A DNA stretch of 64,000 nt from Lingula anatina. Lineage: Eukaryota > Animalia > Brachiopoda. Below the pieces are notes generated by a model, which saw only the letters and a program-made list of their open reading frames with translations, was not told where the DNA came from and did no database searches. The stretch is from contig CM120646.1 in assembly GCA_051362555.1 (NCBI GenBank), positions 3,596,001-3,660,000 of the forward strand. Reading direction: 5' to 3'. Of this stretch, positions 750-59,992 are shown one piece after another. A program made the position numbers and the translations under genes. How positions within the stretch are numbered: the stretch's first letter is position 1; each line of letters begins with the position of its first letter.

Positions 750-3009
750 AAACTTGAATATATATGTTCAGTTTACAAGTTGCTGAAAACTGTTGACCGA
801 CTCTTCATTAGTGATCATTAAAATGTTTTAATTATTTTAAAGTTTAATGACACTTACAAAAATGGCTATAAATTTATTTTAATTTTTTTAATGGTTAATT
901 TATATGTGAATGTGATAATACATGTATGTGTAATGAGATATGTAATTGTGTATCTCATATTGAGATTGGATAGTGTGTTTGTGTTAAATGTGATATACTG
1001 GTATAGGATATACTGTAGCACTGTTTCAGTTTTTGAAGGAAAACACTGCACAATAAACAGTTAAGATTTAGAAGCACCGTCTCATGATTAGTGTTTTGAA
1101 GTGTTTTTCGTTCATTTTTACTCACTGGTGTTCCGTTTTCTGTGAACAAAAGGGAAGCTATGATGCCTCAGAGAGCTCCCCTTTCACCTATATTCGATGC
1201 TTTATTACAAGGTTTGATATGAATTAGTTTACGAATGGTGAAACTAATTTTACAGGAATTTAACAGCTGGTGACATAAAAATATTCAATTTGTTAAAGAA
1301 CTGAGCGATTACTACAAGATAATGGAATTGGATAGGGTTAGCAATGATATAAATACCAGTAACCAGAGATTAAAAATTATCAAAAAGATACACGAAAAAT
1401 GCAGATGGCGCGCATGCTCCCTGTTTTAATGAAGCTTCCGTCTTTTGTAATTTCATAAACAGTCTTTTAGGTCTTTTAATTTTCACGGACTACTATTCTT
1501 TATTGTTGATTTGCTGGAGTATAACGAAGGACATGGTTTGACATAACTTGCCCTTTTTATATCTTTTAAAGTCGCTATAAACCTTATACGCTGCATACCT
1601 ACTGTATAAGGTACAGTGTACATGTTATGCTCTTAAGACTCTAAAAATGTCATGTAAAGGTGTTATTTAAAAATGTTGTTTAAGTCCAAAAATAGCCTTT
1701 CTCTTACGCGTAAATTCTCCATGTCATGCGTCTTGAGACCATACAGTGCATTTCGACCAATTAATCTGTGTACAAGAAGGTGGATTTAGAAGGTGTCCGG
1801 AAAGTTACTTTATCTTAATCCCAAAAGTATTAGATATCACAACTGCGCGAGGTACGTGCAATCCCTAGGAGGCTAGGTATTTCTTTCTGGAAGTTTAGAA
1901 TTATTTCCTCATTCCAATGTTATGGTAAACATTCGAGAGAATTCAAAGTCTTGCGACCTCGAAGTCTCTCGTAAAAGCGAGCAAAAACTGTCAGAATTTA
2001 TAATTATTCCTGGTTATATTTCTGGTTTTCAGTTCAGTTCTGGCGAAATCGTATTATACACAACGTATTCACCATATTTTGCTTGTTGCTTTTGCATTGT
2101 TTTCTAAGACGATATTCCCAGGACTTGAACACTCATTATAAAGGTTATCCCCAGCTCACGTGTTTTCTGGAGAGTTTTCTACTTCTGTATGACGTCGCAC
2201 AGTGTCAGCAGCCTCGTTTTTAGCTATACTGAAGATTTCCTCTGATGACCTACTGAAAACGGATTATTTGATTTTAAAAAGAATCAATTTCTTTACTTAA
2301 ATACTTATTCAAAAACGTTGCCAATGACAAAATTGTTCTGTACCAAATACACCTTAGACACGCGGACTCCTAACTGCAAAAAGATAAATATTCTGGAGAC
2401 TTTCCTACAGTTTTGAGGTTGTACGCTGAAAAAATTGAAGCCACGAAAAGACGCAAACAGCCGCAATGATTGGTACATGTCACGCGCGTCTGTGTGGAGA
2501 TAGATTTTGTTGGAGGTTTGTAAGAGTTGAAAGCGACATGACTCTCAAGTTACGTCAACTTCGTTTATAAGGGTCTACTTATTCAGCTGCGAAAATCACA
2601 CGTTATGCCTTTTTCATGTTTTATAACAGTGTCATTTGAGAGACGAACGCGACATGGGTCGTGTCAATCTCGCATCTGTGGAGTTCAGTAAGTGGCAAAA
2701 GAGACACAGCCATGTCATTTTCGGCTCTCAAAGCTCTGTAGTAAAAGACGAACTCGGCATAGGCCTTGTCGTTTTCGCATGTAAAGGGGCGTCTAAAAGA
2801 CGCACGCGTAGGCTCCTATGGGCCATGGTAGGTGCGGACAAACCCTCGAATAATACAAAGTTAGTTGATGGGTGTTGTGAATTAGGGTCAGCACAACACC
2901 AACTGTATTTCATTAATTCTACATGTAGGCCTACTAGTAGTCTCCTTTTTGGACGTGTTTATTCTCCGTGGTGTGTGTGAGTGTGTTTGTTTCCGCATGT
3001 GTGTGTGTG

Positions 3010-3171
3010 CAGGCCCGTAGCCAGCAATTTCAAAAGGGGGGTTCTTTTTCTGAAAAAGTGGACCTTTTTCCTCAAAAACTCCATGTACCTAGATCAAATA
3101 TTACCCAGAGTGGACCTTTCCCAGCAAAAGGTTCTTTCGAACCCCCCGAACCCCCCCTGGCTACGGGCCTG
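3010..3171 (+). mobile_element. MITE family A (hAT-like; TIR CAGGCCCGTAGCCA), inserted in a (GT)n tract
   Basis: Termini caggcccgtagccag ... ctggctacgggcctg; homologous copies at 17778, 43914 and 45732. Confidence 0.8.
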
Positions 3172-3978
3172 GTGTGTGTGTGTGTGTTTGTGTGTGTGTG
3201 TTTTGGGCGGGGAGAAGAGGTTATATAACTTTTTTGGACAATTAAATACTGTATAAACGATTATGTACAGTTTTTGTAGTTACATGCAGTTCACAGGTTT
3301 AATTAATGTTTAAAAGATATGAAAAATGTAAAGGCCTGAACAATGCACCCTCATTTAAATTGCTTCTCCCAATCGATAGACGATATTGTGTTTTTTCTCT
3401 AATTTTTTAAAATTGTCATTTGCCAAATTTTAGACAAGATTTCGTTTTTTTAAAAATGCTATGTTTAACATTTATCACGCAGAACAAATCTCCGTTTACT
3501 TACTTAAAGAAATGTAGACAATTAAATAAAATCAACGCAATATTTCTTAGAATATTTTTTGCACGATAGGCCTTATACCGCGGTATATATAGTTATCAAT
3601 GAAAATATTATCCGCCCGTCTCCTTCCGTATCCATCCGCTCACAAAGATAACCATGGTTTATCGCTCGGTTGTACTGGCCGGAGTTGTAGCAGTCTTACT
3701 CTTTATCGCTCTAATTTGATTAATTAGGGGACTCATATCAAAAGAATATCGGGAGTGATCTCATCACATCCCCCGCCTGGGTGGAAGAGACTGCCAAACA
3801 TGCCTCCGGCGGTGAGTTCGCGGTCACGTCACGCATGGAAATAACACGGAAGGTTAAAGTGCTTGGTGTATATTTAGTTAGACACTCCTAATACTTTGTT
3901 TTAAACAGATTTAGAGAGCGTAATGTTACTTTTGAGACCAGTTCGTGTGTGATACAGCATGGGGGTATTACTGAGAAC

Positions 3979-4160
3979 ATGAGGTGGTTTGAAATCTGGC
4001 TAGCGCTCTGCTGGGTGACGGTCAGCTTGGAGAAGAGGACGCTGGCGCTGGCGGAAGGGGGATGTTTTGAGGAGTACGCCGAGGTGTAAGTAGGACATCC
4101 ACTACTATGGTTGTGCATGGCTCAGTGTTTTTAACAGAAGCACGGTGTTTTGATATTTTA

Positions 4161-4212
<52 letters not shown>

Positions 4213-7200
4213 GTGATCCATGAAATATGTTGTGTTTAAATGCCTCAAGGTGACTCGTTATATGTTAATTGTGTTTAAATTACTCAAGGTGACTCGTAAT
4301 AAATCAAAAGATGAAAAGGAAGATCAAGGAAGTCATACCTGTAGTCGTTGCACATGCCACTGGCGTCCGCAATTGTACGCATTCTGCATACATTTCTTTC
4401 AAAAATGTCTCTTCAAGTTTCTCGCAAAAGTTAATTCGCAGTTTTGTCCATGATAGAAACTAGCACGCATCCAGACGCTGAGGACAAAAAAGCATAACCA
4501 GATTGATGTAGTTAGCATACCTGCTTATAATCGGTAACCAGGATGTCGATAGATATTTCTGCATTACCTTATGATAATAGGGACCCCTAAAATACATGTA
4601 CTATACAAAATCACAGTCAGTGTGGACCTTCAACATTTTTGTGTCAGATTAATTACTAGCGTACCCTGCGGTCAGAGAGTATCGCTGCATCAACATCTTA
4701 TTTCTGTCGCTGTCGTCTGTTATGAGTACAGTTTTCAAATTATGTGGCAGGCGACATATATGACTTTACCTACAAAAGGCACGTAACCAGGTCTGCCTTT
4801 ATTATTACCAGGTCACATGTTATCTATTTCATGAGTTAAAAGATTCACATTTTAATCAATTCTACAGCAAAGTATTAATGTTTGAAATACGCTTCTTTTC
4901 TAAGGATGGGTTATTGTTTGTTTGCGTTTGTCGTCTCAGTAATTACAAAGCCCCATTTTCTCACACACCCCCTACACCGCCAGGCCCACAGATTGTTTTT
5001 TCACTGGATATTTAGGGATATGTCTGTGGCTAAATCTAAAACAATTTTCCCCTGTCGAGAATGTTGGTGTGGATTTAATATCATCACTTAGTAGGCCTCT
5101 AGTATAATAGACAGCGGTAGATCTATACATGTAGATTGCCCTTTCTCCCAGTTCTGAGTAGATTATAATAACAACAAGAATGTACGTGTTAGTCATATTA
5201 GGCATGCATTAGTGTTGAACTGATTTAAATACCTAATCAGGTTAAGAAATGATTAAAATGTGTACTCTAGATCACGTTATCTGTAATAGGCTGCATTCAC
5301 AACCTTAGTTGATCCGCAGACTAACAGATCTAACAGACCCAGTGTTAGAGTGCATTCCCAGAAATTTAGATCGATCCATCCGGATCGACCTAACTCCCTG
5401 GGGGTTCACGCTAAATTGCAGTCAGCCGAGCGGGCACCATAGTTAATTACTCCCTTACAGCTTTTAGTAGGCGGGACAGACGCTTAAGCCGGCTAAGCTG
5501 ACAGTAATCTATTGAGACTCTCCACAGGGATAGATCGATCTAAAATTTGTGGGAATGGGGTCTTAGATCGGGATTACTTAGACAATCGATATTATCATTT
5601 ATTAATCGACTTGAGTCAGAGAGGTCATGACGAATTTGTTTAGGTCAATGTATAGATATTAATGACCTGTGTAATGATACACATAACATAACTGTATAAA
5701 TTTCATTGCATTTGAGCATTATAAGGACTACACCAAAGACGTCTTTTTTTTGCATTTTATAGAGAAAAAGAGAACATTACTAAAAAGTTGTCACATGGGT
5801 ATCATTCAACCGGTCATATAGCTAATCAACCAGACAACGTCCTCCATAGGCCGAAACCTATACTTTATGTTTGAAACTCCTCACAATATACATAAAGATA
5901 CCATTGAATTTATTATTATTATTATTATTAATGTAAACAAAAATGACGAAAACTGTTTTAAATTAACATAATAGCATTGTATTGTTTACAGGTACCAGGA
6001 AACGTACTTGAGGGCCGAACCCGTGGTCACCCATGTCTCCGTCACTCAGTCCTGTGGTATATTTGGGTGGGGCAGATGCCGCGTGCAAAGGTAATTCACA
6101 TTCCAGGTCCTCCACGGATTACGTAATTTGAATGTAACCTCGGGTAAATATACGGAATTAGCCGAGGTTAGCCGAGTGCAATATCACATACCGATTGTAT
6201 AATGATTTTTTTAACACACAATAATCGGATGTTAATTAATATGAAAAAGAAAAATGCACGAAACTGCAAGTGCTGCACGGTCAAATTTGACTTAATGATG
6301 ACATAGAACATAACCTGTGCAACTATGATCTACATTTAGACATTGTGATGTAAATCATTTTATTCAGGAAATGCGTCTGAATACGCTTAAGTACGTGTGT
6401 CTGTGGTTTTGTTACATGTCTGTACACTCGTCGAATAGTTTTAGCAATTTTTGTACCAGCAATTGCCTAGTACTTTGTCACTTGATTAGCAATGAATGGC
6501 TAACTTAAGAAAATAAAATAATAATATTTTCTGGAAATTATTCCAGTTTCTTTTCATCCCAAGGTACATGTATCTCCTATCCAAATCTGTCTTGAAAATC
6601 GCGATCTCTGTACTTTATTGGAAGTCCTTTTACATTTGTTTATTTTACGAATAGAAGTTGATTTCAACAGATTCCATCCCCACTATGAGAGCGAATCGGA
6701 ATAGTGAAACAAGTTTATAGATCGGGGGTATGTCAATTGTATTTGATATGAAGTACCTCGGTGATGGAGGGGGCACGTTGACCTTTCTATAGGAAATTCA
6801 GTTTGTGCCATGTGAAGTTGTTTAAAAAAAGATAACTCGCGGGATACCCCTGTAATAGGAGGAAATACACGCGGCTACCCTGAATGGCTAAGATGCCAAA
6901 CAATTAAGATCTACTGAGATTACATAAAATCTTTTAAGTAGAAAAATATCAAAGTATTGTTTCGGCCGGATGAAATATCTGGATAGTACAATGACCTTTT
7001 GGAAAAAGATTGCTTACTTTAGACAATTTAAGGAGATATTTGTCCAATTCTTGAATAGTGCCCATGATATAAAGACAATTAAATCTAAATTCCTCGTGTA
7101 TTTTGTCTTTTATAGACGTATTACAAAGACTCGTCACGTGACCGCAACCCGCCTGGCAACGAGACTTCGGAAACGATGCTGCGAGAACTGGACAGGGGAG

Positions 7201-10200
7201 CTTTGCGGTACGTATTCCTAATAAATATTAATCAACATCACTTGTTTGCTATCAGCCATCGAGTTATGAAATGAATTTCTCTTTCGACAACTGTGGCCGT
7301 CTGCATATGTTGGTGAGCCACATTGTTGTAAGTTGTAGTGTTATGTGTCAATTGAAAACTGTCCATCGGAGCATTCAGTTGTAAAAGACAAGTTGCATGG
7401 TCTTTCCTATCATAGGTGCAAATAGACCATTGTGGATCTATTTAAAATTCCCCGAATAGAATCTGTGTAAAGAAATGACGTAATGTTTTTCTTGTGTAAC
7501 GAATACAAGTATCTTTATAGTTTGAAAAATGAAAAAACTAAACAGTACTTAGTTCTCGTGATTATTATTAAATGGTAAGCCTACAGTTTTATGTCAAAAT
7601 TCAGCTATATTTCTTTTCTTGAAAATCTTAAGTTTAAAAAGCCAGCTGAAGATATTTCAGATTGGAATAGAACGTTTCCTCATACGGAAGACATTCTAGT
7701 TATGAACTCGATTCATACTCTTCCAGATCAAAGTTTAATTACTTCCACAGTGTCAAGTTCCCCGTCCACTACTCCTACTTCTACAATGACCAGGCCACCC
7801 CCAATAATCGTGACAGTGTCAAAATCTCCTGGAACCTCCTCAGAACACAGCAGTACGAGCTTTAGGAAGCCAACAAAGGTTCTCATACCCACGCAGGACC
7901 TCTGGCCCAGTACAGGTACGGACTCCACGCCAGGATTATCTGGTCAGACTACGGCAAGAGGAACCCCAGGAACGAATTCTACTGTAAAGGCACCTGCAAC
8001 TCCAACCTTAAGACCGACGCCAATACTGACGCCAATGCCAACAGCACTGCGACCTAGTCCTACAGGGCTACGGCCGACGACTTGGCCCGGGCCGACGCCA
8101 TCTTCAACACCAATACCAAGACCTTCACTAATGCCGTCACGTACTGCAGAGCCAACGCCCACGCCACAAACTCCAAGAAGGCCTACCCCAACAAAAGGAC
8201 CGGGGCCACAGCCAACGCCCATGCCAGAAACTCCAAAAAGGCCTACTCCATCAGTGTTTCCGGGGCTAGAGCCAACGCCTTGGATACCGCCACGAACTGC
8301 AGGGCCAACGCCCATGCCAGAAACTCCAAAAAGGCCTACTCCATCAGTGTTTCCGGGGCTAGAGCCAACGCCTTGGATACCGCCACGTACTGTAAGGCCA
8401 ACGCCCATGCCAGCGACCACGCTATCGCCAACGCCATCGCCATCGCCACGTACTGCAGTACCAAGGCCAGGGACAGTTGTCACTCCTTCACCCAGTACTG
8501 TGACGCCGCAACCCAAACCACCCGACAAGACCCCCTCTTCGTGGACGGATGTCCCAACACGGTATGTGCCAGACCAAGGGTCTGGGGTAACCCATTTCAA
8601 TGTCAGCGTGACCTCCTCGTGGTCACCGAGTTTGCAAACGTCACCAACTACGTCAGCTACGACACACGAGGAGAAATATACGACAACCACCCTTGATGCA
8701 CGAGGCGAATGGACAACCGCAGGCGATAAGGGCCACTTGACATCACCTAGCGTGTGGTCAGCTGTGACTACCGCGGGCGAAACGGACGGTGTAACACCAA
8801 CGCTAATTCACCTGTCTTCAGATGTTACTATCTCCTTTTTGTCTAGAAATATAAGCGAAGAGCTCCTCTTCCTCTGTGAGTTTGATTTTCATCGCCCTTT
8901 CGATAGCAAGACGTGTGAATTGAAGGTAAGTGTATGTAGTGTATGTATAGTGTATGTTTGAATGGACACTTAAACAGAAGTTTATGTGCCGCTTGAAATT
9001 GGACATATGAACGCTTAAAATTTGTGAGGTCTTTTAACCCCTTACATACAGTCAAATTAACCTAACTTTTGCTGTCTGTTTGCACATGCAGCAGCAGTGT
9101 TTACCGCAAAGCTGGTCCCACCTACCTCGATCACTAAGCCACTTATCTTATCCTAAAAGATAAATGACATGGAACGTAAACCAATGAAACCTGCTCATGC
9201 ATGAACGGAATACCAAAGGTACTTCCTTATGGGGAATTCCCCTGGATTCTCCTCACATGTGACGTGTTTCTACTGGCTAGTACAGGTGCTGTCCTTAAAA
9301 CTGTCACGTGTTTTGTTTGCGGTTTGATAAATAAGCCGAGGCGTGTGCCTTGCTTAATGCTTTTCGACATCGTCTGGAGCACGCGCAAAGGCTTTTTTAG
9401 TCAAAGTAACTTACTGTTGAATCGAAAAATGTCACGATCGGTTTGATGCGGTGACAATAATGCAACCGTTTAGCAGAATAACATCACGGAATTTTCAGTA
9501 TATTTTTGTAATTTAAGCTACTGCCTTGCGTAGAAAGGAACCCGTCAAAGGACAGCGCGGTATCTAAGATAGAACAGGAACAAAACACACAACGAGATAC
9601 CATTTTGCAGTTCCGCTCCGACTACAAATTGTTTTGAAAACTTAACTTACACTGGTAGAAATGCACATCTAAATTGACTTCTTTACCGGACAAGCACTGC
9701 TGTTGAGTTAACGAGAATAAAGCGCAGCTTTGTCAATGGAAATGCCTGGGTCGTTAAGGAAGGTGGCGTGTGTTGTGTGAACCACCTGACGCTATACGTG
9801 TATGCAGAAAATCCGTTATCATGCCCACTGCGACAGATAACACGAACATGTATCAGTGACTGTTATTGATTCCCCCCACAGAAAAAAACTGCAGTATAAT
9901 GAAAGACTAACCAAACTTTTCTCTACCTTTTCTGACATACGCCATAACTCTGTAGGAATCTGGGAAAATTAAGTAGGCCTTAGCCCACACATAACGATGG
10001 TTTTCAAATTCCGCCCACCCTTCGGGCTCTACAATGTCATTAGGAATCAGCACGTTAAAAGTTAAACTGTCTTAAAAGACAGCTGACTGGCGGCAAAGTT
10101 CGACCTGGCTGTGGTAAAAATATTCATCAATTTTTATCAAAGAAAGGTATTTTGTATTTGTTTCTTTATATTCGTTCTCTATTTTAGTGGCTACGCCATG

Positions 10201-10629
10201 GACAGCGAATCAGCAAGATCAGCTCTCGCTTCCACGAGAATTTCTACAGCGGCAAAGGAAGGACCCGTTTTCTAAATGTCCTGAAAATCTCGCCACTGAA
10301 TAGGACGGACGTGGGGGAGTACGTGTGTGTGGCAAGCACGCAGACGGCGTCCAGTAATGTGTCAGTTGAGATAAGAGGTGAGAAAGATTGTGACTGCCTT
10401 GGTGTGTGCGTGTTTGAAGGAATTTATTTGATATTAGGGTTTTAAATTGATGTGCATGCCTTTGTGTGTGTTTGGATGCAAATCTTTTACACCACTGGTT
10501 CTTGACGTTCATTTAGACCTACCTTTTTGTTTATTTTTTGACAAATTATTCATCGTCAAGCCAACCATGTGTACATCTGAATTCCACTGTAGAATTTATT
10601 AAGGTGTTATTAATACCTACATTTTGGTG

Positions 10630-10665
<36 letters not shown>

Positions 10666-10994
10666 TATTTATTATTATTAATTTTTTTGTTGTTGTTGCA
10701 GAGCTCTTGGTATCTGAGCCACTTGGTACTAACGAACCTTTTCATATTGACAACCGTGCCGCCATAGCGACCATCACTGGCCTGGCGTTGTTGTTTGTGG
10801 TGACAGTGGTGGTTTTGCCTTGGGTCGTGTACCAGAAACGGTTTATCATAAAACTGAGAGCGAAGAGGTATTTTGGAAAGTACGAAGATACAGGTAAATT
10901 GTGTTAATTGTTTGCTTTTCTTTTAATACATTATTTTTTTTTCTGTACCTGTATTTAAATATATTTTCCTTGAGATTTTTCCGTGGATGTTTAT

Positions 10995-11026
<32 letters not shown>

Positions 11027-11313
11027 AACGCTGCTGTTTTTCATGACATGACATTATTTTAATTTTGTATTTTGCAGATGATAAGCTTTATGATGTATTC
11101 GTATCTTACTGCCCAGACTCGGTAGACGAAATATTCGTAGTTCGAACACTGGTTCCTAAACTGGAACAGACATATAATATGCGAGTGTGTGTTGACTACA
11201 AGGAGTTTTTGCCTGGAGAAGGTGGGTTTTCTGAAAATTGGATGGTCCGAGATCCTTACTGGAAAATTTTCTTTGAATGTTAAGTCACCTTCATCCTGCT
11301 CTCCTTCTGTCAT

Positions 11314-11349
<36 letters not shown>

Positions 11350-12027
11350 GTGCGCGCGCACACACATACTCGCACGTACGCTCGCGCATCTGTGCACATG
11401 AACTGACATAACTCGCATATTTAGTGCACCAATATTTCATTTTGCAATAATAATGGAAGACGTTAATATTAACATAAATGACTAGTTTCCGTTTATCTTA
11501 TAATGTTTTTCTTTCTTATTTTATTCATACTTTTAGTCCTAAGTGTCAGTGTTATAGAAGCCGTGGAATCAAGTCGAAGAACAATTCTCGTTCTCTCTCC
11601 GAGATTTATCGAGAACGGCTGGTGCAGATTTCACTTTCTTAGCGCGCAGTTGGAAATGCTTCAATCCAAGCACAGCATTATACCTTTGATATATGAGGAC
11701 ATAAGCAAAATAAGTTCCACAGACAAAGATCTCAGAAATATACTTAAGATCGCCAAACCAGTGCGGTGGCCATCTGAGAGAAGGCCTAGGACTGAAAACA
11801 ACTTCTGGGACCACTTGCATTTATTATTGCCAAAGAAACGAAAACCAGCGTCTGGTTTTAGGGTAAACTTTTCTCGATGGGTGTTTGCAAGCAATAAAGT
11901 GGATTATGTCAGTACAGATCTGAGTTATGACAATAGCAGGCCAAAATCGAGGTCCGAACGTTCAAACGGGGTCATAAGCCCGGCAGATTTTACGGACTTA
12001 AAACTCCACATAGAAGACATTGTTTGA
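3979..12027 (+). CDS. Single-pass Ig-TIR (IL-1R-like) receptor with N-terminal EMI-like domain and mucin-like stalk; 8 exons, 837 aa
   Basis: Exons 3979-4085, 5992-6090, 7116-7207, 7727-8925, 10188-10377, 10702-10893, 11078-11221, 11537-12027; all GT-AG and phase-compatible, 2514 nt in total. Signal peptide MRWFEIWLALCWVTVSLEKRTLA. EMI-like Cys pattern GGC...SCGIFGWGRC...KRCCENWTGELC. P/T/S-rich stalk. Ig domain LLFLC...LKWLRHG...LKISPLNRTDVGEYVCVAS. TM AAIATITGLALLFVVTVVVLPWVVY. TIR box1 YDVFVSY, box2 VCVDYKEFLPGE, SRRTILVLSPRF, box3 FWDHL. Confidence 0.9.
4166..4209. repeat. (CT)n microsatellite
   Basis: Direct observation; further (CT)n at about 10999-11025 and (CT)n(CA)n at about 11314-11350. 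Confidence 0.95.
5349..5563 (+). mobile_element. MITE family B (probably PIF/Harbinger-derived; CATTCCCA...TGGGAATG ends)
   Basis: Core ctccctggggg-ttcacgctaaattgcagtcagcc...ttagtaggcgggacagacgcttaagccggctaagctgac recurs at about 35130, 42259 (reverse) and 12230 (diverged); boundaries approximate. Confidence 0.7.
8212..8410 (+). repeat. Coding 93-bp tandem repeat (31 aa, PTPMPETPKRPTPSVFPGLEPTPWIPPRTAG) in the mucin stalk
   Basis: Near-identical units start at 8212 and 8305, with a partial third at 8398; degenerate PTP units lie upstream. Confidence 0.85.
9231..9242. promoter_or_regulatory. Perfect palindromic NF-kB (Rel) consensus site GGGGAATTCCCC in intron 4 of the TIR receptor gene
   Basis: Direct match to GGGRNWYYCC on both strands; a second kB-like site GGGATACCCC at 6841-6850 (intron 2). 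Function is not demonstrated. Confidence 0.4.
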
Positions 12028-12229
12028 CAATGTCGGCGTTGCAGCAGTGATTAACCTATTAGATACAGGTCTAATTGGTCGGTTAGTTCCAGATACTTGA
12101 CTAGAGTCATCATCGGTTGGACTAATTTAAAGGGAATGTGCCTTCCAAATGATTGCACAGGACCAGACACACACGAGCACGTGCTTTGTCGCAAACGACA
12201 TTTATACTGGGTTCCCATACCTACATCGA

Positions 12230-12440
12230 TCTCACAGGATCGATCCATCTCCAAATGGTTTCTCATTAAATTGCTTTCCACTTAAGCGTCTTATATTTCT
12301 GGCACACCTACTGAAGCTGTTAAACGATAATTAATTATCCCCTCACAGCTTCAGTAGGCGTGACAGACATCTAAGCCGCTTAAGCGGAAAGCAATTTAGC
12401 GAGAACCCCCCTTGCAGATAGATCGATCCACAGTTAGTAC
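12230..12440 (+). mobile_element. Diverged MITE family B relative in the 3' UTR/flank of the TIR gene
   Basis: gatcgatccatc...taattatcccctcacagcttcagtaggcgtgacagacatctaagccg...gatagatcgatc. Confidence 0.55.
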
Positions 12441-13406
12441 GATAGGGTCAGCGAATGGACCCTTACAAAAAATCATTTCTATTTTTATTTTGGTTCAAAT
12501 TATACATAATTATTGGAAATTTATATTTAATATTAGTGAAGAAAGAAATTACTTATATGATTAGTCTTATTTATTTATTGCTTCTCTTCCTAATTAGGGT
12601 TTACGTGTGATGGGTATAAGGTAAAAGTAGCGTGCTGGCGGTCCTTAATACTTGCTATGAAAAGATTTGTGAAATGTAAAAAGTTCCTGAAGACGCCTAG
12701 TAAATATAAGTGAGAATGTGTTTACGTCTGAGGGATCAGCTTGCCGGCATTGGTTTGCGGAGTCATTTAGTTTCCTTTAAGACTAGCGCCTGTTATATTT
12801 ATTATTATTATTATTATAATTATTATTATTGTTGTTGTTGTTGTTGTTGTTGTTGCTTAGTCCACGGTAAATAATGGAAGTGTGTCTTCTGTTATAGCGA
12901 TATTTACTTTAACTTGAAGGGCTAACGAACACTATGGCAAATTACTAAATAAATACAGTAAATATGAAGAAAACTCAAAAAGAAAATAAACTGATTCCCC
13001 GACTTCGTGGAAACCTATCACTGGAACATTGATCCGTTTGATTAGTGAAGTAAAACAAAGGGTATTTACCTCCTGGTAAACCTTGCCGCTCGTCAACCAT
13101 CTTTGAAATCGCGCGTGATCTGGAAGCCGGCGCGAGAATTGAAATCGAATGGATGGCAGAATTTGAAAAACCACCGCTTAAAACGAGGGTAAAGGGCATT
13201 TTCATTGACCCATTGGTCCTCAAACGAATTATACCCCATCAACGAAGTGTTTACCTCTCTTAACCTTTGATAAGATATATATCTCATGTACGCAAACTTA
13301 TATCATATTGTGTAAGGATTAAAGTCCTAAACTGATGTAAATATAAAGATACCTGCCACATTGTTTGGCCAGATTATATCAGGCTGATAGGAACAGTGTA
13401 TAAGTC

Positions 13407-16400
13407 ATGATCATCCGTGAGTGTTCTCTAGGTAAGTTATCTCAATGTCCATTTATTACACAATTTATAGATGCAGCTCCTCCTCCTGTCAGAAACTAGG
13501 CCGTAATTCTGCAACTGATTGCATTTTCTTGTGTGATTTGTACTGTTTGTTTCTCCATTTAATTTAAAAGATATTGATTTACGGTTTCTCACTCAATTGC
13601 ATTTTCTTACGTGACATGCACAATTTGTTTCTCTATTTAATGTGTAAGATATTGGTTTTAGATTCCCTCACTCTTGAACTAAAAAGGCATTGAAATCCGT
13701 ACTGTTTCTAAAAACAAAAGGGTGAATAAAAAGTTTATTTGAAGATACAAGGTTAAATGGGCAGTGCTAAAAAAAACGAGGGTCATGGTAACAGAGCGTC
13801 CGCCCTCCATTAAATTCGTACAGGTTAGGGTTATCGTGACGTAGGTGGGTCATATCTAGGATGAAGTTTACATGTACAAATCAATGGTATCCCGTATCAC
13901 TAGGGGCTTTGGTACGTGACATGCTTCTAACGCGTAACTGCACCATTGTATTGTAGCGCTAGTACTGTTGGTTAGCGTCTGGGCGTTCCCCAAACCTCCT
14001 CGAACCATACCGCCCGCGAACCCCAGCGACCCTGGCCGTCTGCCGGATGGCATACAAAAACGAGTTCTCGTTCTAGGTAAGTTTTCAAAAGGAGTTTAAA
14101 AAGGAGTTAACTCAGAGCTATCTGCGAACCTATAGGCCTATCTCGATCGGTGCCTCTTATTAATGCATTTTGTACTGTATTTTTGATCCTGGAACTTACG
14201 TTTGTAACCTGATAAATTGTTCTCTCACTAGTTCCAGTATCAGATTTATATACATATTTGTCACTCTAATTCTACTGGATGACTGAATACATCCATTCAT
14301 TAGTAGAGCATGTTCATACCATACATCTATTTAATTTTTGTTACTGCAATCATAGGATCTATCTATTTCGTTTCATATCGTGTATGTTTTCATTATTGTT
14401 GAATAACAACGTTTTAAACGTATCTTACCCATATTTTATGAAGCACGATTTAAACTAAAGTGACGCAACCGCACCGTACAGGCTTTCTTATGGAATGAAC
14501 TATTTTTATACGCACTTTACCAAGGTGGGGGCTTAGCTGGCCTCTCAGCTGCACTAGAGCTCGCGGAACGTGGCTATGACGTCACAGTTAAGGAGAAGAG
14601 TGACGTGTTCGGCGGGAAATTGTTTACCAGAAGGGTCGACATTCCAGGGCTTGGAGCTTTTGACGTCGAGCATGGCTTTCATGGTAGGGGGCTGCAGGGA
14701 CTGGGCATTATTCAGCCCTCGGGTCGGCGTCAAATTAAATGTTTTTTAAAGGGTCCATAAAATAATTGTTCTCTAAATTCTTCAAAATGAAAAAGAAAAG
14801 TTTTGGGAGGGGTTGGGGGAGATTATTTGTGAAAGAAAATCAGATCAGGTTGAGGTAAGACAGAACACAGATTTGCTAACAAATTGCTATTCAGACGAAT
14901 CGTTCAGAAAACGACCTATACGGGCTTTCTAAGTTATCAAACGACTTATATTTTTCATTAAATATGCGTTATTCATTAATCCTTGGAAAAAATCTTTATA
15001 AGTGGACTAATCAATATGTTCCTCTCAAGACCCTATTCTACATAGTTTTGTTTTAAAATACATTTTTTCTCAGTTCACATTCTCATTTCACAATCTATTT
15101 ATAATTTGCCATTCCGTAGCATGGTTCTTTAATTACCATCAATTCAAAGACATTCGCCAGCGTCTGAAAATCGACAACAATTTTCGGGTATGGAAGGCCG
15201 TCCACTACATCTTCTTGGACTACAAGCCGGAGACGATTTACAGCGAGGGACCTTATCCGCTCAACCTTTTAGGTAAGCTAGAGACCACAGTTTCTATATA
15301 TAAAATAATGTTAATCAAAAATTTAGCTTTTTAACACACGTAACTATTGTATGAAAAAAAAAAGAAAGAGAGAGGGGCGTATCCGTTAGCTAGAAACTAG
15401 TGAACATTAGGATGGGGCGTATACGTTCAACCAACTTAAACCCAACGAATGGAGTGGGGGCATTTTCGTTTAAGCTACTGGTGTGGGTGAGCTTAAACCA
15501 AATGGAATTTGGGATGGGGCATATTCGTTCAACCCATGGGTAGGCTAGAGACTATCGGACTTATGGAGAGGGCATATCCGAAACTAGGGACACTGAAGTT
15601 CTAAAGACCAGGGCACACTATTTCCTTCACTTTTTCTACTAAAATACTCATTGTCACTCATTGACTGGGTCAAAGAAATTATGCGTAATATTCAGCCCTT
15701 GTGTTACAATCCCAACTTTAGATCTTGTGTTACACGGGACTCAGAGTATTAATGAGACCTTGGACATAAATTCGTTATTATGTCCAAGATGAGGCCCTGA
15801 AGTTTTGTTACATCAGCCTGACACCATTGTGTCCAACGGACACCAAATGACCTTTCAGGTAACCATCTTGCCCTGGATTGTATGCACCAGTGTCCTCATC
15901 TCTTATGACAAAGGAAGCAGTCGTCACTTTATCAGGTTCAGTAAATAGATCCACTTAAATTGGTCGGGGCGTAGTCTAGAGGTGTCGTCAAACAAGGCCG
16001 ACTGCCTTTCATCTTGTTATCAAGGGCCTTTAATCAGATTGTCAAGGTCTCAAATGACTTGACGCCACGTGACTAAGGGCTCATTCCCAACGAAACTATC
16101 GTTCCACATAGATCGATCCGACATATCGGGGATTTTTGCTTATTATTATTATTATAGATGTGATGATTTTGCTGCTCCTCTCCTGTAGTAAGTGGTATAC
16201 CATTATCCTCAATGCCCTACTATGCTGTACTTCAATCACATACTAAAGGTTTCAAGACACAATGCTTAATTATTGAATTATTTATATTTTGATATGATAT
16301 AACAATATGAGCGAATTTGAATTAAATATAATATATGGCCAATGAAAAAATATATGGATACTAGTGGCAATACTAGCAACTAAATAATTAACTAATACGG

Positions 16401-19400
16401 TTGGGTGTTCGAAATAAGAAAGATTAAGCTTTGACCAATAGCAGCCTGTGTTTCATTTAATGCTGAAAATGATAAGGTTATTTCCATTCTTTTGATTAAT
16501 CTTAAAGCACGTAGTGCCTTTATTTATTATATCATTCTAGGCATTATCAGTAGGAGCCCCAATATCAAACTGACGGACGCTATTCTCTCCAGTCTAATGT
16601 TGCCAGATCTGGATTTTTTCGACTACGACACAGTGTATCAAAAGTAAGTACTGAAAGTTAAGTCTGCATCCGGGTCTTTGTAAGAAAATTGATTCATTAA
16701 TCTTTTATAGACAACGGCTTTGTTTAAAACATTAGGGCACTGTCTGTTTTTATTATCAATTTATAATTTATCACATTGGCATTTATTGTACCTGTAGACT
16801 GGAAGGTTTTTGACAAAGTTATTGGATTAGCGATTTTAGCACCATTACACTGTCTCGTCTTGTACATATGCTGTTGCATAAAGTAACTTTTGCCTCAAAA
16901 TGTGATGATGATTTTGTCTTTTGACCAAAGTGACACAAAAAGGATATTTTCCAAGAATAATATACGCAAACAAATAAGATACCCACATGACGAAAAATGA
17001 TCTGTGGAATAATAACAATAATATCATTGTTTTTAAGGTATGATAACATAACATTTGACCAGTGGGCCACCATGCGTGGCGTGCAACGAGATCTGAACGA
17101 TATTCTCCTTCGTCCCGCCCTCTCTGTGACCTTGAACGAACCCAGGGCCATCAGTGCAGCTGAGATGCTCATGTAATTATACTTATATGATTTATGATTA
17201 TAACTTAAAGAATGCTTAATAAAACGGAAAACTAACTTTAAAATAACAATATTGGGTTTGAAGTTTTGGTGTATAGAGGGTTTGATTAAAAATAAATAAT
17301 GCCCCGACTGAACTTCAAAAGTGATGTATACATGTATGCTTTATACCGGAACACGTATCTCAAATTATTCGCTATGGTTTATAGTTTATTGTTGACATTT
17401 AATACCTCTGGCACCTCTGGTGTTTAATAAAAGTAATGTTCAAAAAGGCATATATTTTTGATACTAGGAATATTTTACCTGTTTCCCCGTTTCAATTAAG
17501 ACCAATCTAGTAAGTGGAGAGGGGGCGCAATATTTCCTATTAAATTAATACAGGTAAAATTTAGTGTAATTTGTGCTCCATAGATGAATAAATTATCAGA
17601 TTTGAAGCATATTTTAACATAGGTACATGCAGCTCTATTTCCTGACCAATGCGGAGGCTGACCACCGCGAGGTGACCATATACAGCTTTGGGAAAGCCAT
17701 CCTGCAGCCCTGGCTTGATCGGCTGTCCGAGCTCCATGTGAAGTAATTAATTTTTTTATAAAAAATGTTTGTAAGAACAGGCCCGTAGCCAAGGGGGTTC
17801 GAAAGAACCACCCCTTTTGCTGGGAAAAGGTCCACTCTGGGTAAAATATAATCGAGGTACATGAAGTTTTTTTATGGAAAAAGGTCCACTTTTTCAGAAA
17901 AAAAAAAAACCTTTTGAAATTGCTGGCTACGGGCCTGTAAGAATCTGAACAGCGCATGGGTAAGGTACTATTTTACATTATAGTGTGAGCAGGGGACTAT
18001 CAATAATAATAATAATAAGATTCTTATATGGCGCCTTACATTCTATCTCAAGGCGCCTTACAATAATGGCTAATATACTAAAATCATTAAAATGACTACA
18101 ATATTTTAATCATAAACTCTCATTGGAAACCATTTAAAATTTACACTACTAAAAATCAATCTTATTAAAAAACATATATATATTTAAATAAAATCTAAGA
18201 GACATAGACAGAATTAAAAATGTCAATTAGTTTAAATAAATCTTGCGTGAAATTTCGAATAAAATGTTTTACACCATTGATAATCCAGACACAAAAATCA
18301 TTAATTTATATTTAACGCGCAATGAATAGGAATACAGTTCTTTGCAATATTATGTTAACATGAAAGACCGTCAGTCTACAGCTGTACACGTGTTCCTATT
18401 CTAACAGGTTGCATTCCAACTATTCAGTTGAGCGTCTAACCATAAGTGACCAAGGACAGGTGACCGGTGATAGCAAGGACGCTGTCGTGTATGATCACGT
18501 GGTTTCAGCGATGGACATCGTGGGCACGCAAAGCGTTCTGAATGCGACTTTGTCTTATTACGGCAATAAACCCATAATAACGGATAGTCTGTCTAAACTA
18601 TGGAGTAAAGTGTCTCGCATGAAGTTAGCCCCACCTTATAAGGTAGGCACAGTTAACGTTCTCTACAATTATGCAATTACAGACTTCTTTTGAAAAGGTA
18701 ACATTTTGGCGATTACTTCATTCAAATACATATCTTCTAAAAAGCTCGTCTGATATCATCGTTTTCTGATGAAGCATTGTCAGTTGTACACGTTAAGCGG
18801 ACACTCAAACGCCTGATGATTCAAATACAAAGTGAATACTGCTTTTAAAATTTATATTCACACATAAAGGATACTTATTTCAGACCTAATTTATCAGAAA
18901 GAAAAAAGAGAGCAAACCTGATTATATTTTTGCACCCCTTTCCGCCAGGTTCTCCGTGTTTGGTTCGACAAGCAGCTCAACGCGTCCACACCAGATATTC
19001 TCGAGACTCCCCAACACACCCCAGTCAACCTCGTGGCGCAGTACCACCGCCTGGAACAAGAGGCCAGCGCCTGGGCCAACAAGACCGGTGGTTCTGTACT
19101 GGAATTCCACCTTTACAAATGGGCGCACGGCGACGTTACAGACGATCAAGTGTGGACAATAATTTCTCCCACGGTGAAGCTGATTTATCCAGAGATTTTC
19201 GAAAGGATGTTCAATATTTTAGGCTACCATGTCAACTCGTTTGAGAACTTTTCATCTTTTGAACTCAACTTGCAGATGTTCCGGCCTAATTCGTCCTTCC
19301 CAATGGAATGTGGTCTGCCAAATTTGCATCTTGCCGGTGATTGGTTAAAAACGGCGTATCCTTCCGCGTTGATGGAGAGGGCGGTGTCAACAGGCCGAGA

Positions 19401-19485
19401 GGCAGCCAACCAGATTTTACTATCTGATCGCGTGAAACAAGTAGAGCTCATCGTGACATCTTCTAAGGGTCCAGGAATACTGTAA
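13407..19485 (+). CDS. CrtU-like (isorenieratene synthase / carotenoid phi-ring synthase family) FAD-dependent oxidoreductase with signal peptide; 9 exons, 528 aa
   Basis: Exons 13407-13431, 13957-14076, 14525-14683, 15120-15272, 16541-16643, 17038-17172, 17623-17742, 18408-18642, 18949-19485; all GT-AG and in phase, 1587 nt. Rossmann motif RVLVLGGGLAGLSAALELAERG...EK...GGK, then VEHGFHAWFFNY, SAAEML, APPYKVLRVWFD, WANKTGGSVLEFHLY and LAGDWLKTAYPSALMERAVSTGREAAN; I recognise these as CrtU-family motifs from memory. The 25-nt first exon is the least certain. Confidence 0.88.
17778..17937 (-). mobile_element. MITE family A copy in intron 7 of the CrtU-like gene, with 6-bp TSD TAAGAA
   Basis: taagaa|caggcccgtagcc ... 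ggctacgggcctg|taagaa; reverse orientation relative to the 3010 copy. Confidence 0.85.
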
Positions 19486-47857: not shown

Positions 47858-50800
47858 TCAAACTTCCTCTACCGAAAAATCTTCATCAACTTGTACACCA
47901 AGTCTATTCAAACGCGTCACTTCCATCTTTGCCAACATTTCGTTTTTCGTCGATCCTTTGACCTCACCAGCCACCCTGTAAAGCTTTGCCAGTTCCTTGT
48001 ATACTGTCAACGGCATTTTAGATTTTGGGAATTGCTCATGAACCTGAGGAGTTAATTCAGCAGCTTCTTGCAAGTTGGACCGACTTTGTTCATATAGATT
48101 TCGATATTGATCACAGCGTAGAGCCCCTTGGCGCGGTCTACCAGTCGCCTTGGGCATTGTGTTTTGTTCATTCGTGGACAAATTACTATCATGATGTTCA
48201 AATGCTTGTTCACATTTATTGCTGTTATTTTCAGTAACCACAGTCTGTCCATTTGGTGCCACGTTTTCTTGGTCAACTCGTTGAGCCACTGCCTCGTATA
48301 TTTGCTCAGCCTGTGCCTGTCCTAAATGAAGCAGGTGCTCAACCAATGTGAAATGAATAGGTGTATGTTCTCTACGGATGTCAACAGCTTTCTGAAAATA
48401 ATCCACAGCTTCAGGAAACTCTTTTTTCTTCATACAAACAAGTCCAAAGTCATCATAAATGAGAGCTATATCTGTCGTCTTTCCAATCTTCTGACACATA
48501 GAAAAAGCATCTTGCAGCATAGACATAGCTCTGTCAAAATTCCCCGTTTTGACATAGAGCATTGCTGTATTACTTAGAGAGTAAACGATGGACAGGTTGG
48601 CTTGTTTCATACATCTTCGTTTGCATCTAAGACCACATTCGAAGTTCTTCAGTGCATTATCATCCTCTCCCAACTCGCGATATGTCAGACCCATATTGTT
48701 GTAGACAGCCCCAATGGAAGGATGATGCTCTCCAAAGTTAGATATGCGTAAGTCAAGGGTATCCTCAAAATATTTTATGGCTTTTTCTTTCTCTCCTGCA
48801 ATTACCATGAATAAGGGCAATGTTGATACCATTATTGGTTTTTGCACAAAGGCGCATGAGTTAACTAATACAGGTAGTGGCACACTGCCAATGACGTATT
48901 ACGTATACACTTACAGCTTGCGAAATAGCTTAATTTCCTAAGAAAATTGACTCTTTTCAATTTCAGCCGTTCTTCAGTTTATTTGCTCCTTAAATAGATC
49001 ACGCTCCTATTTTAAAACGACGAAGATTTCGTAACGTGATAACCTCACTCACCCATTATAGAAAAGACGAGGCCCTGGGTCGAAAGGGTTTGACTCATAA
49101 GAAGGCTTGCTTGCATACCCCCCTCTTCTTCCAGTTTGTATGCTTTCTGAAGGTACCTGTCATTATAATATAACCTCTACTCAAAGATTCATAGTCCAAA
49201 ATATATGAGAGTCGGGATTCACATGGCAGGTCTCTTTAGAAACTGTTTGACACTGATATCTTTTAACAGGAGAAAATAAAAGATGCATATTTCTCTTTAG
49301 AATGTGTTTGGTGCAAAACCTTTAATTCATCTTTAAGACTTACCTCTGTGACTTATTCAGGTGGCCATATTTGTAGTAGTTCCAACCCAGATGCTGGTAC
49401 AGAGAGGCCATGTCTACAGGAGTACCCTTGAGGGAAAGAATTACCCTCGCCTTCTCATAATAATCTATGCCTTTTTGTATATCACCCTGAAATATGCATA
49501 GCAACTGTCATATAGACACACGTGCACAAATGAAACCACTTTACACAAAACTGAAAAAGAAAAAATGAGCAAATGACCTTAAATCATAAATGAAGTAATA
49601 ACATTAGAGCCAATAAGTTGCAATCTTTAAATAGGCATACCCAACGGATCCAATGTTAAAAGAAACGGTGCGTCTTCTTTTATAAATATAGAAAGTCATG
49701 CAAATCGTATACCTTTCAATAATTATTTATGTACCTCAATATTGGTCACTGCCTGTGCGTATGCTGATAGCATAAGTCCATGATGTCTGTGGTCAGCACC
49801 GTCAAACATTCTAGACTGCTCCATCATGTCTTCGTAAAAGCCAATGCTTTCTTCTGCAAAAATAGCTAGTCCGTTAACGTGATTGAGAAATATGTTTTAT
49901 AGATACTGGGCCTATATTATATATTTGATATTTTTGAACAACCGTCTTGTTAAAATGTGTTTACTTTGTACAGTATCATCTTGCCCGACCGTGCCTCCGT
50001 TATTAACGGGTACTTTCCCAATAGATTAATTTTTACCGACAAAATAATAATCTTCATTGGTTCTCGGACATTTTACATTTCTAATGTACATTTTCAGCTA
50101 CCCACATAAATATATACACACGCTGCAAAGAATGAAGCATTTTACATTATACAGAAAGCAAAGTAATACATGCACATGCAAAATGTTAAAAAAATTGAAA
50201 TATGCAGATCTACAAAGACAAACTCTAGTATACTTGTTAGTTTTTCAATAAAGAAAAAATAAATAATAAAAATAATTCAATAACATACTTTGGAAGAAAC
50301 TAATGATAGGGTATTCTGCCAGCACAGCCACTTTGATAAAACTTTTGTAGCTGTCTTCATTACAATGCATCGCCTGTGTGAGCAGCTTCTCCAAGTTCTT
50401 CCATTCCACGTCCATGGTGGCAGTGGCAAACATTGAGTTCTTGGACAGCATTTGGTTATTAACACACTGAAGAATATCTGCGAAAAACTTACTATAACGG
50501 AGCCTCACCACTGAAAATAACACAATATTGTTGATTTTATAATGAGAAAATTCTTAGAAGATATGGTACAATCCGCTAAATTTTAATTTCATTTGGATGA
50601 ATTCCTTAAATAGTTTCAGTGTATCGCAGCTTAAATTATCAACAAATTAGGGCATTCAGCCTATATTTTTGCTTTATGTTTTCTCTCTCATTTGTTATTT
50701 TTAGTAAAATATTCAAGAAATGAATACACGCCTAAAATAGAAATTTCAAAAGGGGGTTGTCTTGGTTGAATCGTCGGGGGTGGGGGTAGGGAAAGAATTG

Positions 50801-51992: not shown

Positions 51993-52033
<41 letters not shown>

Positions 52034-59990: not shown

Positions 59991-59992
59991 TA

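What the first reader, a model, noticed from the sequence alone, without database searches (positions are those of the whole stretch)
3979..12027. Unusual receptor architecture: EMI - ~350-aa mucin stalk - single Ig - TM - TIR
Seen: a complete 837-aa model, mostly invisible in the ORF track because the EMI and Ig domains are split over small exons. Known: TIR receptors normally sense through LRRs (TLRs) or 1-3 Ig domains (IL-1R/SIGIRR), whereas EMI domains head engulfment receptors (CED-1/Draper/MEGF10) and EMILINs. Inference: a shuffled receptor holding a Draper-like recognition or oligomerisation module far from the membrane on an O-glycosylated stalk and wiring it to TIR signalling.
Basis: partly seen in the sequence, partly recalled or inferred. 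Interest (0 to 1): 0.72.

Follow-up and report, generated by a model that had tools for sequence, protein, structure and literature searches.

The report
EMI-tipped stalk receptor with TIR tail
A lamp-shell (brachiopod) gene, with six of its seven splice joins seen in RNA, encodes a predicted membrane receptor that holds a likely EMI-type recognition domain on a long, predicted sugar-coated stalk and ends in a Toll/IL-1-receptor signalling domain, so it likely turns surface contact into an immune-type alarm, though no function has been tested.

Summary
The gene is real. Eight exons (3979-12027, + strand) give an open 837-aa protein, four residues from Lingula anatina RefSeq XP_013419237.1. RNA reads show 6 of 7 splice joins, including those tying the N-terminal exons to the stalk. 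The Ig-to-membrane join is inferred. TIR passes Pfam's cut-off. The single Ig scores under it but has the expected Cys-Trp-Cys core. The six-cysteine head is EMI-like but divergent: EMI is its only Pfam hit (E 0.0011, under the cut-off), all 10 Atlas structure neighbours are EMI-type families, and 4 of 4 listed variants in it are silent. My own folds failed. The TIR keeps the BB-loop Pro-Gly but has His where NAD-cutting TIRs have Glu, so it is likely a scaffold, not an enzyme. It fails the vertebrate IL-1R sequence test, yet its last intron lies where IL-1RAcP's does. No relative carrying this head turned up among 1.84 billion representatives. No held paper names EMI with TIR, but the two key surveys (Gerdol 2017, 2018) were not seen. 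Verdict: a new ectodomain variant of the known invertebrate non-LRR TIR receptors. Ligand and pathway are untested.

The parts
3979..4085 (+). Exon 1: start codon, predicted signal peptide (hydrophobic residues 4-17) and first Cys of the EMI-like domain (C29)
   Evidence: join to exon 2 in 11 reads; signal peptide inferred from hydrophobicity, no predictor run
5992..6090 (+). Exon 2: middle of the EMI-like domain (aa 36-69; C57, C65)
   Evidence: join to exon 3 in 22 reads; 3 of 3 listed variants silent
7116..7207 (+). Exon 3: end of the EMI-like domain (aa 69-99; basic strand, C90-C91, W94, C99), closed by a phase-1 intron
   Evidence: join to 7727 in 29 reads; Pfam EMI E 0.0011 on aa 24-102; Atlas structure neighbours
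7727..8793 (+). Exon 4, first part: Pro/Thr/Ser-rich mucin-like stalk, aa 100-455, with 60-nt and 93-nt tandem units at 8147-8413
   Evidence: composition; repeats; an in-frame 60-nt skip 8209-8270 in 7 reads of two runs
8794..8925 (+). Exon 4, last part: first half of the Ig domain (C483 and an extra C496)
   Evidence: join to exon 5 in 23 reads
10188..10377 (+). Exon 5: second half of the Ig domain (W500, D-x-G-x-Y-x-C546)
   Evidence: Pfam I-set E 0.00086; PDB sequence hits are titin, Robo and contactin Ig domains
10702..10893 (+). Exon 6: linker, transmembrane helix (about aa 582-608) and basic juxtamembrane segment; phase 1 at both ends
   Evidence: hydropathy; helix 580-621 in a low-confidence AlphaFold model; join to exon 7 in 31 reads; join from exon 5 inferred
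11078..11221 (+). Exon 7 (144 nt): TIR box 1 to the BB loop (P672-G673)
   Evidence: Pfam TIR; gap-free match to residues 1-45 of the IL-1RAcPb TIR, PDB 7fcc; join to exon 8 in 19 reads
11537..12027 (+). Exon 8: rest of the TIR (His707 at the catalytic-Glu site, codon 11632-11634; box 3 F764-W765; P773), a 62-aa tail and the stop codon
   Evidence: over exons 7-8, 13 of 15 listed TIR variants are silent, including one in the His707 codon

Best explanation
This is one spliced gene (six of seven joins seen in RNA, the seventh inferred) for a predicted single-pass receptor in which a likely EMI-fold head binds a ligand on another cell, particle or matrix, and the clustering that follows likely lines up its TIR domains as a non-enzymatic scaffold for a MyD88-type adaptor. 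Steps: (1) Shown: exon chain, domain order, expression at low depth in 8 of 8 RNA runs laid. (2) Supported but under naming thresholds: the head is EMI. (3) Inferred: the 356-aa stalk is O-glycosylated and extended, placing the head roughly 70-90 nm out (0.2-0.25 nm per residue, a recalled figure). The basic head (12 Lys/Arg against 7 Asp/Glu, pI 9.1) would favour an anionic ligand such as exposed phosphatidylserine or sulfated glycans. (4) Inferred: the membrane-proximal Ig is a spacer and pairing module, and its odd third Cys could link two chains. (5) Shown in sequence: the TIR keeps box 1, the BB-loop Pro-Gly, the charges of box 2 (Arg-Asp read as Lys-Glu) and box 3, but has His707 in place of the catalytic Glu. 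(6) Inferred: output runs through adaptor assembly to NF-kB/MAPK rather than through cADPR. Odds: gene and architecture about 0.9; this activating mechanism about 0.5.
For: Splice joins and sense-strand depth. Independent RefSeq models with the same 837-aa chain. EMI is the only family of 24,736 to hit aa 24-102. All 10 Atlas structure rows are MEGF10/11, EMILIN, EGFL7, collagen XXVI, multimerin or EMI-carrying clusters, TM by query 0.56-0.70 over 62-78 residues, with the aligned part assigned to EMI in 6 of 10. Silent variants: EMI 4 of 4, TIR 13 of 15, stalk 10 of 21, against 0.21-0.28 expected. The Ig-TM-TIR part is nearest to IL-1R-family clusters by features (0.95). His707 stands against Glu in 6 of 6 other TIRs aligned; catalytic animal TIRs, including a Lingula unguis TLR, need that Glu (10.64898/2026.04.20.719644, passages). 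EMI is required for NimA- and PEAR1-type contact (PMC13076899, passages) and heads receptors that recognise phosphatidylserine directly or indirectly (PMC11349873, passages).
Against: The EMI score is under Pfam's cut-off, and all Atlas rows are 'under the bar' for naming. The best feature hit (0.89) has no family. My own AlphaFold runs did not give an EMI fold (pTM 0.33 and 0.26), and the PDB searches for the head found nothing significant. The exon 5-6 join was not seen, and no read spans the whole transcript. Box 2 is altered and 6 of 9 IL-1R-group positions differ, which could weaken adaptor recruitment. Nothing here ties the gene to immunity: Ig-TIR proteins of invertebrates have unclear function (PMC2858798, passages). 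The variant counts are small and come from the rows the tool chose to show.
Confidence: 0.5

Rival explanations
1. SIGIRR-like damper: the receptor engages self surfaces or dying cells through EMI, and its TIR joins TLR/MyD88 assemblies without passing on signal, lowering inflammation.
For: A single Ig next to the membrane, a tail beyond the TIR and heavy predicted glycosylation recall SIGIRR (PMC3482685, passages). SIGIRR clusters are among the nearest by features (0.92-0.93). There is Leu770 where IL-1R-group TIRs mostly have Tyr, box 2 is altered, and the catalytic Glu is missing.
Against: The bivalve relative P0005 has Leu at that site too while keeping Arg-Asp and the Glu, so Leu is a family trait rather than a loss. 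BB-loop Pro-Gly and Ser687-Arg-Arg are kept. Orthology to SIGIRR is not shown.
Confidence: 0.25
2. Adhesion or developmental receptor: EMI mediates cell-cell contact (homophilic or with matrix), as in NimA and PEAR1, and the TIR and tail signal or scaffold outside immunity, as IL1RAPL proteins are recalled to do at synapses.
For: The EMI of NimA is needed for cell aggregation. The Ig half resembles adhesion-type I-set domains. Low expression in all 8 runs laid. The protein ends in a hydrophobic residue that could bind PDZ domains (the motif class is recalled).
Against: Tissue labels of the runs are not given, so a neural or developmental pattern cannot be seen. In-frame length variation of the stalk between animals fits a surface-exposed protein but does not separate the roles.
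Confidence: 0.18
3. Two products rather than one: exons 1-5 make a secreted EMI-stalk-Ig protein by reading into intron 5, and exons 6-8 belong to a separate membrane TIR transcript.
For: The exon 5-6 join is in neither read table. Read-through of exon 5 ends in a stop after 22 further residues. Some sense reads lie in the 3' part of intron 4.
Against: Depth in the 10498-10706 bin is 0-0.1. One search lists no loose ends there. The tool drops rows beside that repeat. The only open in-frame acceptor is 10701. Exon 6 has no start of its own in the model, and both RefSeq models contain the join.
Confidence: 0.04

Closest known systems
Invertebrate non-LRR TIR receptors (Ig-TIR / IL-1R-like and EGF-TIR of oyster, Aplysia, amphioxus, sea anemone)
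   Same: Single-pass receptor with Ig and TIR and no LRR. These classes are listed in PMC4346834 (one legend seen), PMC9334734 and PMC2858798 (passages). Nearest sequence: Mactra antiquata P0005, 38% over TM-TIR. A 65-member, mostly molluscan cluster of 739-aa TIR proteins (EGF in 14%) is a structure neighbour.
   Different: An EMI-like head and a 356-aa mucin stalk. P0005 has only about 30 residues before its membrane segment, so its ectodomain cannot be compared. The molluscan cluster's sequences could not be fetched, so an unnoticed EMI there is not excluded.
Vertebrate IL-1 receptor family, especially SIGIRR (IL-1R8) and IL-1RAcP
   Same: Ig-TM-TIR order; nearest clusters by features; box-2 spacing and the alpha-E Pro as in group 4. 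Exon 7 matches IL-1RAcPb TIR residues 1-45 without gaps, and the last-exon swap of IL-1RAcP/AcPb begins at alpha-B (PMC9213720, passages and section 10), where intron 7 lies here.
   Different: Only 3 of 9 extended-box-2 and 3 of 6 alpha-E group-4 residues are kept. The whole TIR scores slightly better on TLR1 (56.6 bits) than on SIGIRR (50.6) or IL-1RAcPb (46). Group 4 is reported only from jawed vertebrates (PMC7075850). No EMI or stalk in the vertebrate family.
EMI-headed receptors: CED-1 / Draper / MEGF10 / PEAR1 / NimA
   Same: N-terminal EMI on a single-pass receptor; MEGF10/11 clusters fill 4 of 10 structure rows.
   Different: No EGF or NIM repeats follow the EMI (Cys list). A stalk and one Ig stand in their place. 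The tail is a TIR rather than tyrosine-based motifs.
Toll-like receptors, including the cADPR-making Lingula unguis TLR
   Same: TIR with boxes 1-3 and BB-loop Pro; best PDB sequence hits are TLR1/2/10 TIRs.
   Different: No LRR, and the catalytic Glu that the L. unguis TLR needs is His here.
Head-on-mucin-stalk receptors such as TIM-4 (recalled, not looked up)
   Same: A small recognition domain lifted by an O-glycosylated stalk.
   Different: EMI rather than IgV head, an extra membrane-proximal Ig, and a TIR tail.

Membership tests
EMI domain (Pfam PF07546) | Profile score at or above the curated cut-off (25 bits) | tested here: not met
   20.2 bits, E 0.0011, profile positions 16-69 of 69, sole hit on aa 24-102; 14.7 bits in the whole protein
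EMI domain (Pfam PF07546) | Six Cys with an adjacent pair followed by x-G-aromatic, at the N-terminus of a secreted or membrane protein (pattern recalled, no call) | tested here: inconclusive
   C29, C57, C65, C90-C91, C99 and W94 are present; Asn93 stands where Gly is recalled
EMI domain (Pfam PF07546) | EMI fold | tested here: inconclusive
   Atlas model: 10 of 10 rows are EMI-type families, TM 0.56-0.70, all under the naming bar. Own single-sequence models too poor to test
TIR domain | Pfam TIR above cut-off, with boxes 1-3 | tested here: met
   61.8 bits against 21.3; box 1 at 631, P672-G673, F764-W765; box-2 Arg-Asp is Lys-Glu
NAD-cleaving (cADPR-making) TIR enzymes | Catalytic Glu in alpha-C | tested here: not met
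   His707 in both RefSeq copies against Glu in 6 of 6 other TIRs; a silent variant keeps His in divergent animals
Vertebrate IL-1R family (TIR group 4 of PMC7075850) | One or three Ig, one TM, TIR | tested here: met
   One Ig, one TM, TIR; EMI and stalk are extra
Vertebrate IL-1R family (TIR group 4 of PMC7075850) | Group-4 residues: E-x3-G-Y-x-L-x-I-x2-R-D-x2-P-G, and F-W-K-x3-Y-x-M-P in alpha-E | tested here: not met
   3 of 9 and 3 of 6 identical; spacing to P-G fits; no Gly-Tyr pair
Vertebrate IL-1R family (TIR group 4 of PMC7075850) | TIR split by an intron just after the BB loop (a gene-structure trait, not part of the paper's definition) | tested here: inconclusive
   The region matches; exact codon and phase in vertebrate genes are recalled, not checked
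Vertebrate IL-1R family (TIR group 4 of PMC7075850) | Groups with IL-1R TIRs in a tree; binds an IL-1-family cytokine | not testable with these tools
   No IL-1R sequences could be brought into the tree tool; no binding data
Toll-like receptors | LRR ectodomain | tested here: not met
   No LRR family hit
CED-1/Draper/MEGF10 receptors | EMI followed by EGF/NIM repeats | tested here: not met
   No Cys between 100 and 482; no EGF hit
Mucin-type stalk | Long Pro/Thr/Ser-rich, Cys-free segment with tandem units | tested here: met
   55% P+S+T over 356 aa; 60- and 93-nt units
Mucin-type stalk | Dense O-glycosylation | not testable with these tools
   Needs glycoproteomics

The most novel reading that the evidence does not exclude
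A one-chain efferocytosis-to-inflammation switch: an engulfment-receptor EMI head that reads 'eat-me' or damaged-self surfaces from beyond the glycocalyx is wired directly to a TIR descended from the same intron-bearing ancestor as vertebrate IL-1 receptors. It would then stand for an overlooked lophotrochozoan EMI-TIR family (the divergent EMI escaping annotation in molluscan 'EGF-TIR' and 'orphan TIR' sets) and show what IL-1R-type TIR receptors sensed before IL-1 existed.
Probability: 0.15. Interest if true: 0.8.

Novelty: new variant of a known kind. Interest (0 to 1): 0.47.

Why it matters
Invertebrate Ig-TIR receptors have no known ligands, since IL-1 was not found in the animals examined (PMC2858798). 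Here the ectodomain carries a module with testable candidate ligands (phosphatidylserine, sulfated glycans, cell surfaces), so it offers a handle on what such receptors sense. It also shows that sub-threshold EMI domains are missed in TIR-protein catalogues (only TIR is precomputed for this protein). And it is a natural Glu-to-His TIR in a genus whose TLR makes cADPR, useful for separating enzyme from scaffold roles. Its weight is limited: one species so far, in a class already known for ectodomain shuffling.

Tried and rejected
An 859-aa model using the upstream AG at 7660 was rejected: reads join 7207 to 7727. No whole genome is held, so paralogues outside the window were not searched; tblastn finds no second copy inside the window. 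No RNA holder was listed by the index; the runs laid were added by species label. Searches for relatives of the head found only the protein itself: 27 word-sharing candidates and 1.84 billion representatives, where the one other hit (P0009, E 1.8e-4, 22 residues of a repeat protein) was rejected as spurious. AlphaFold on the head alone (pLDDT 64, pTM 0.33, other four models 38-42) and on the whole protein with an 8-row alignment (pLDDT 35) gave no usable EMI or Ig model. PDB sequence search with the head: best E 0.43. A test of EMI self-pairing was not available, so oligomerisation is open. No TRAF6-type motif and no NF-kB-like site in 2001-6000 were found by simple patterns. Literature: three searches requiring EMI and TIR together with other terms gave 0 papers. 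Gerdol 2018 is not held and Gerdol 2017 was not looked up. The one held supplement of PMC8662601 names neither accession nor EMI. PMC8419693, PMC5549309, PMC5620054 and PMC7144542 (passages) added nothing on this gene.
Full report
Observation. The region holds one plus-strand gene of eight coding exons (3979-4085, 5992-6090, 7116-7207, 7727-8925, 10188-10377, 10702-10893, 11078-11221, 11537-12027) that translate to 837 aa without a stop. A search with the last exon returned the same protein as RefSeq XP_013419237.1 of the brachiopod Lingula anatina, named 'uncharacterized', with only TIR precomputed. The window differs from it at 4 residues and from a second model, XP_013399554.1, at 17; the two models are likely haplotypes, which I could not test. 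The finding is therefore a correct reading of a gene already modelled but not described by its sources.

Is it one transcript? Eight RNA runs were laid, 6-30% of each being read. Reads cross introns 1 (11 reads), 2 (22), 3 (29), 4 (23), 6 (31) and 7 (19). In the five runs that behave as stranded, exon depth lies almost wholly on the side expected for a plus-strand RNA. Intron 3 is joined to 7727, which fixes the length at 837 rather than 859 aa. Intron 5 is not listed. Its acceptor abuts an ATT repeat at which the tool cuts reads and drops rows; the 10498-10706 bin is nearly empty, one search lists no loose ends at its edges, and 10701 is the only acceptor that keeps the frame. I take this join as inferred. 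Short reads show a chain of joins, not a whole molecule.

The head. Residues 29-99 carry six Cys (29, 57, 65, 90, 91, 99), are basic (pI 9.1) and end exactly at a phase-1 intron. Pfam gives EMI as the only hit, E 0.0011, 20.2 bits against a cut-off of 25. In the ESM Atlas, all 10 structure rows are MEGF10/11, EMILIN-1/3, EGFL7, collagen XXVI, multimerin-2 or another EMI-carrying cluster, with TM by query 0.56-0.70. All are under the tool's naming bar and both sides are predicted models. The best feature hit (0.89) has no family and the second (0.79) is 97% EMI. Against this, my own AlphaFold runs without a real alignment failed and the PDB searches were empty. The head is under constraint. I classed the variant rows the tool showed: 28 of 40 shown (12 non-coding rows dropped, 268 not shown) and 40 of 40 shown (108 not shown), 49 codons in all. 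Silent were 4 of 4 in the head, 13 of 15 in the TIR, 2 of 4 in the Ig and 10 of 21 in the stalk, where random changes would be silent 21-28% of the time (transition bias ignored). I call it a divergent EMI-like domain, about 85% likely a true EMI.

Stalk, Ig and membrane. Residues 100-455 are 22% Pro and 33% Ser+Thr with no Cys and contain 60- and 93-nt tandem units. Seven reads in two runs skip 60 nt in frame, so stalk length seems to vary between animals. The Ig is split by intron 4, has C483, W500 and D-x-G-x-Y-x-C546, hits I-set under the cut-off and adhesion-type Ig chains in the PDB, and has an unpaired extra C496. One membrane-length hydrophobic segment follows.

The TIR. It passes Pfam easily. 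It keeps box 1, the BB-loop Pro-Gly and box 3; box-2 Arg-Asp is Lys-Glu. At the catalytic position it has His707, against Glu in 6 of 6 other TIRs aligned. A preprint shows that animal TIRs which make cADPR, among them a Lingula unguis TLR, depend on that Glu, and notes that TLR2, IL-1R9 and IL-1R10 have it yet showed no activity (10.64898/2026.04.20.719644, passages). So this TIR is predicted to be a scaffold; the His does not by itself make it inhibitory. Its affinity is mixed. Atlas features place the Ig-TM-TIR part with IL-1RAcP, IL-18R and SIGIRR clusters (0.92-0.95), while PDB sequence scores slightly favour TLR1. By the published group patterns (PMC7075850, passages) it keeps 3 of 9 and 3 of 6 IL-1R-group residues, so it is not a member of that vertebrate group. 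Still, exon 7 aligns without gaps to the first 45 residues of the IL-1RAcPb TIR, and the exon swap between IL-1RAcP and AcPb starts at alpha-B (PMC9213720, passages and section 10), where intron 7 lies here. That hints at shared ancestry rather than pure convergence; the exact vertebrate codon and phase are recalled, not checked.

Relatives. No protein with a related head was found among 27 word-sharing candidates or 1.84 billion representatives. This says the head is divergent, since even ordinary EMI proteins were not reached; it does not say that EMI-TIR is absent elsewhere. The nearest TM-TIR is a Mactra antiquata model, 38% identical over 195 residues and lacking an ectodomain. A mostly molluscan cluster of 739-aa TIR proteins is a structure neighbour.

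Mechanism. Most likely (0.5) the EMI head, lifted some 70-90 nm by a glycosylated stalk, binds a surface ligand in trans, and clustering lines up the TIRs for a MyD88-type adaptor. EMI mediates contact in NimA and PEAR1 and is not needed for NimA multimers (PMC13076899, passages), which favours recognition over oligomerisation. Rivals are a SIGIRR-like damper (0.25), an adhesion or developmental receptor (0.18) and two separate products (0.04). No ligand, adaptor or immune role is shown.

Comparison and novelty. Ig-TIR and EGF-TIR proteins are catalogued in oyster (PMC4346834, one legend); EGF-TIR genes are listed for Aplysia (PMC9334734, passages); and Ig-TIR is reported to have arisen several times (PMC2858798, passages). 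Three full-text searches requiring EMI and TIR together with other terms returned no paper, and this scan's notes hold none with both words. The two surveys most likely to list the gene, Gerdol 2017 and 2018, were not seen (the 2018 paper is not held; the 2017 paper was not looked up), nor were their supplements or those of the preprint, so 'undescribed' is provisional. Verdict: observation confirmed, interpretation partly supported, new variant of a known kind, interest 0.47.

Noticed in passing
window 3959-3982 (+): A seven-codon upstream ORF whose stop overlaps the main start codon at 3979; it could damp translation.
   Followed up: no
window 8147-8413 (+): Tandem units in the stalk vary between animals: an in-frame 60-nt skip (7 reads, runs X8 and X9), a possible extra repeat, and a 6-nt deletion at 8864 in the Ig.
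   Followed up: partly
window 9871-10187 (+): Sense-strand reads in the 3' part of intron 4 in runs X5 and X2 (depth about 1-3): retained intron, pre-mRNA or a short isoform lacking head and stalk.
   Followed up: no
window 47858-56663 (-): Two similar TPR-repeat exons (47858-48898, 55713-56663) and a STAND/NB-ARC-like NTPase exon (52266-53222) suggest tandem NTPase-TPR (NLR-like) genes; the P-loop reads G-K-A-S.
   Followed up: partly
window about 13900-19485 (+): A multi-exon FAD-dependent amine-oxidase-family gene just downstream (Pfam Amino_oxidase on two exons), with a possible signal peptide near 13938.
   Followed up: partly
window about 5290-5570 and 12200-12450: A dispersed repeat with RNA depth in the hundreds in intron 1, and a related copy in opposite orientation just past the stop codon; likely a transcribed short mobile element.
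   Followed up: no
window 8914-8916 (+): Extra Cys496 in the Ig leaves an odd number of extracellular cysteines (nine after the signal peptide); a candidate for an inter-chain disulfide.
   Followed up: no
window 59037-60729: ORF pieces that look like decayed mobile elements (recalled resemblance to DIRS-type and Harbinger-type sequences); no Pfam hit for the 3 pieces scanned.
   Followed up: partly
RNA runs X7, X8, X9: Reads of one study are clearly more divergent from the window than those of the other two (none 99% alike in X8 and X9), which suggests a distinct population or sibling species under the same label.
   Followed up: no
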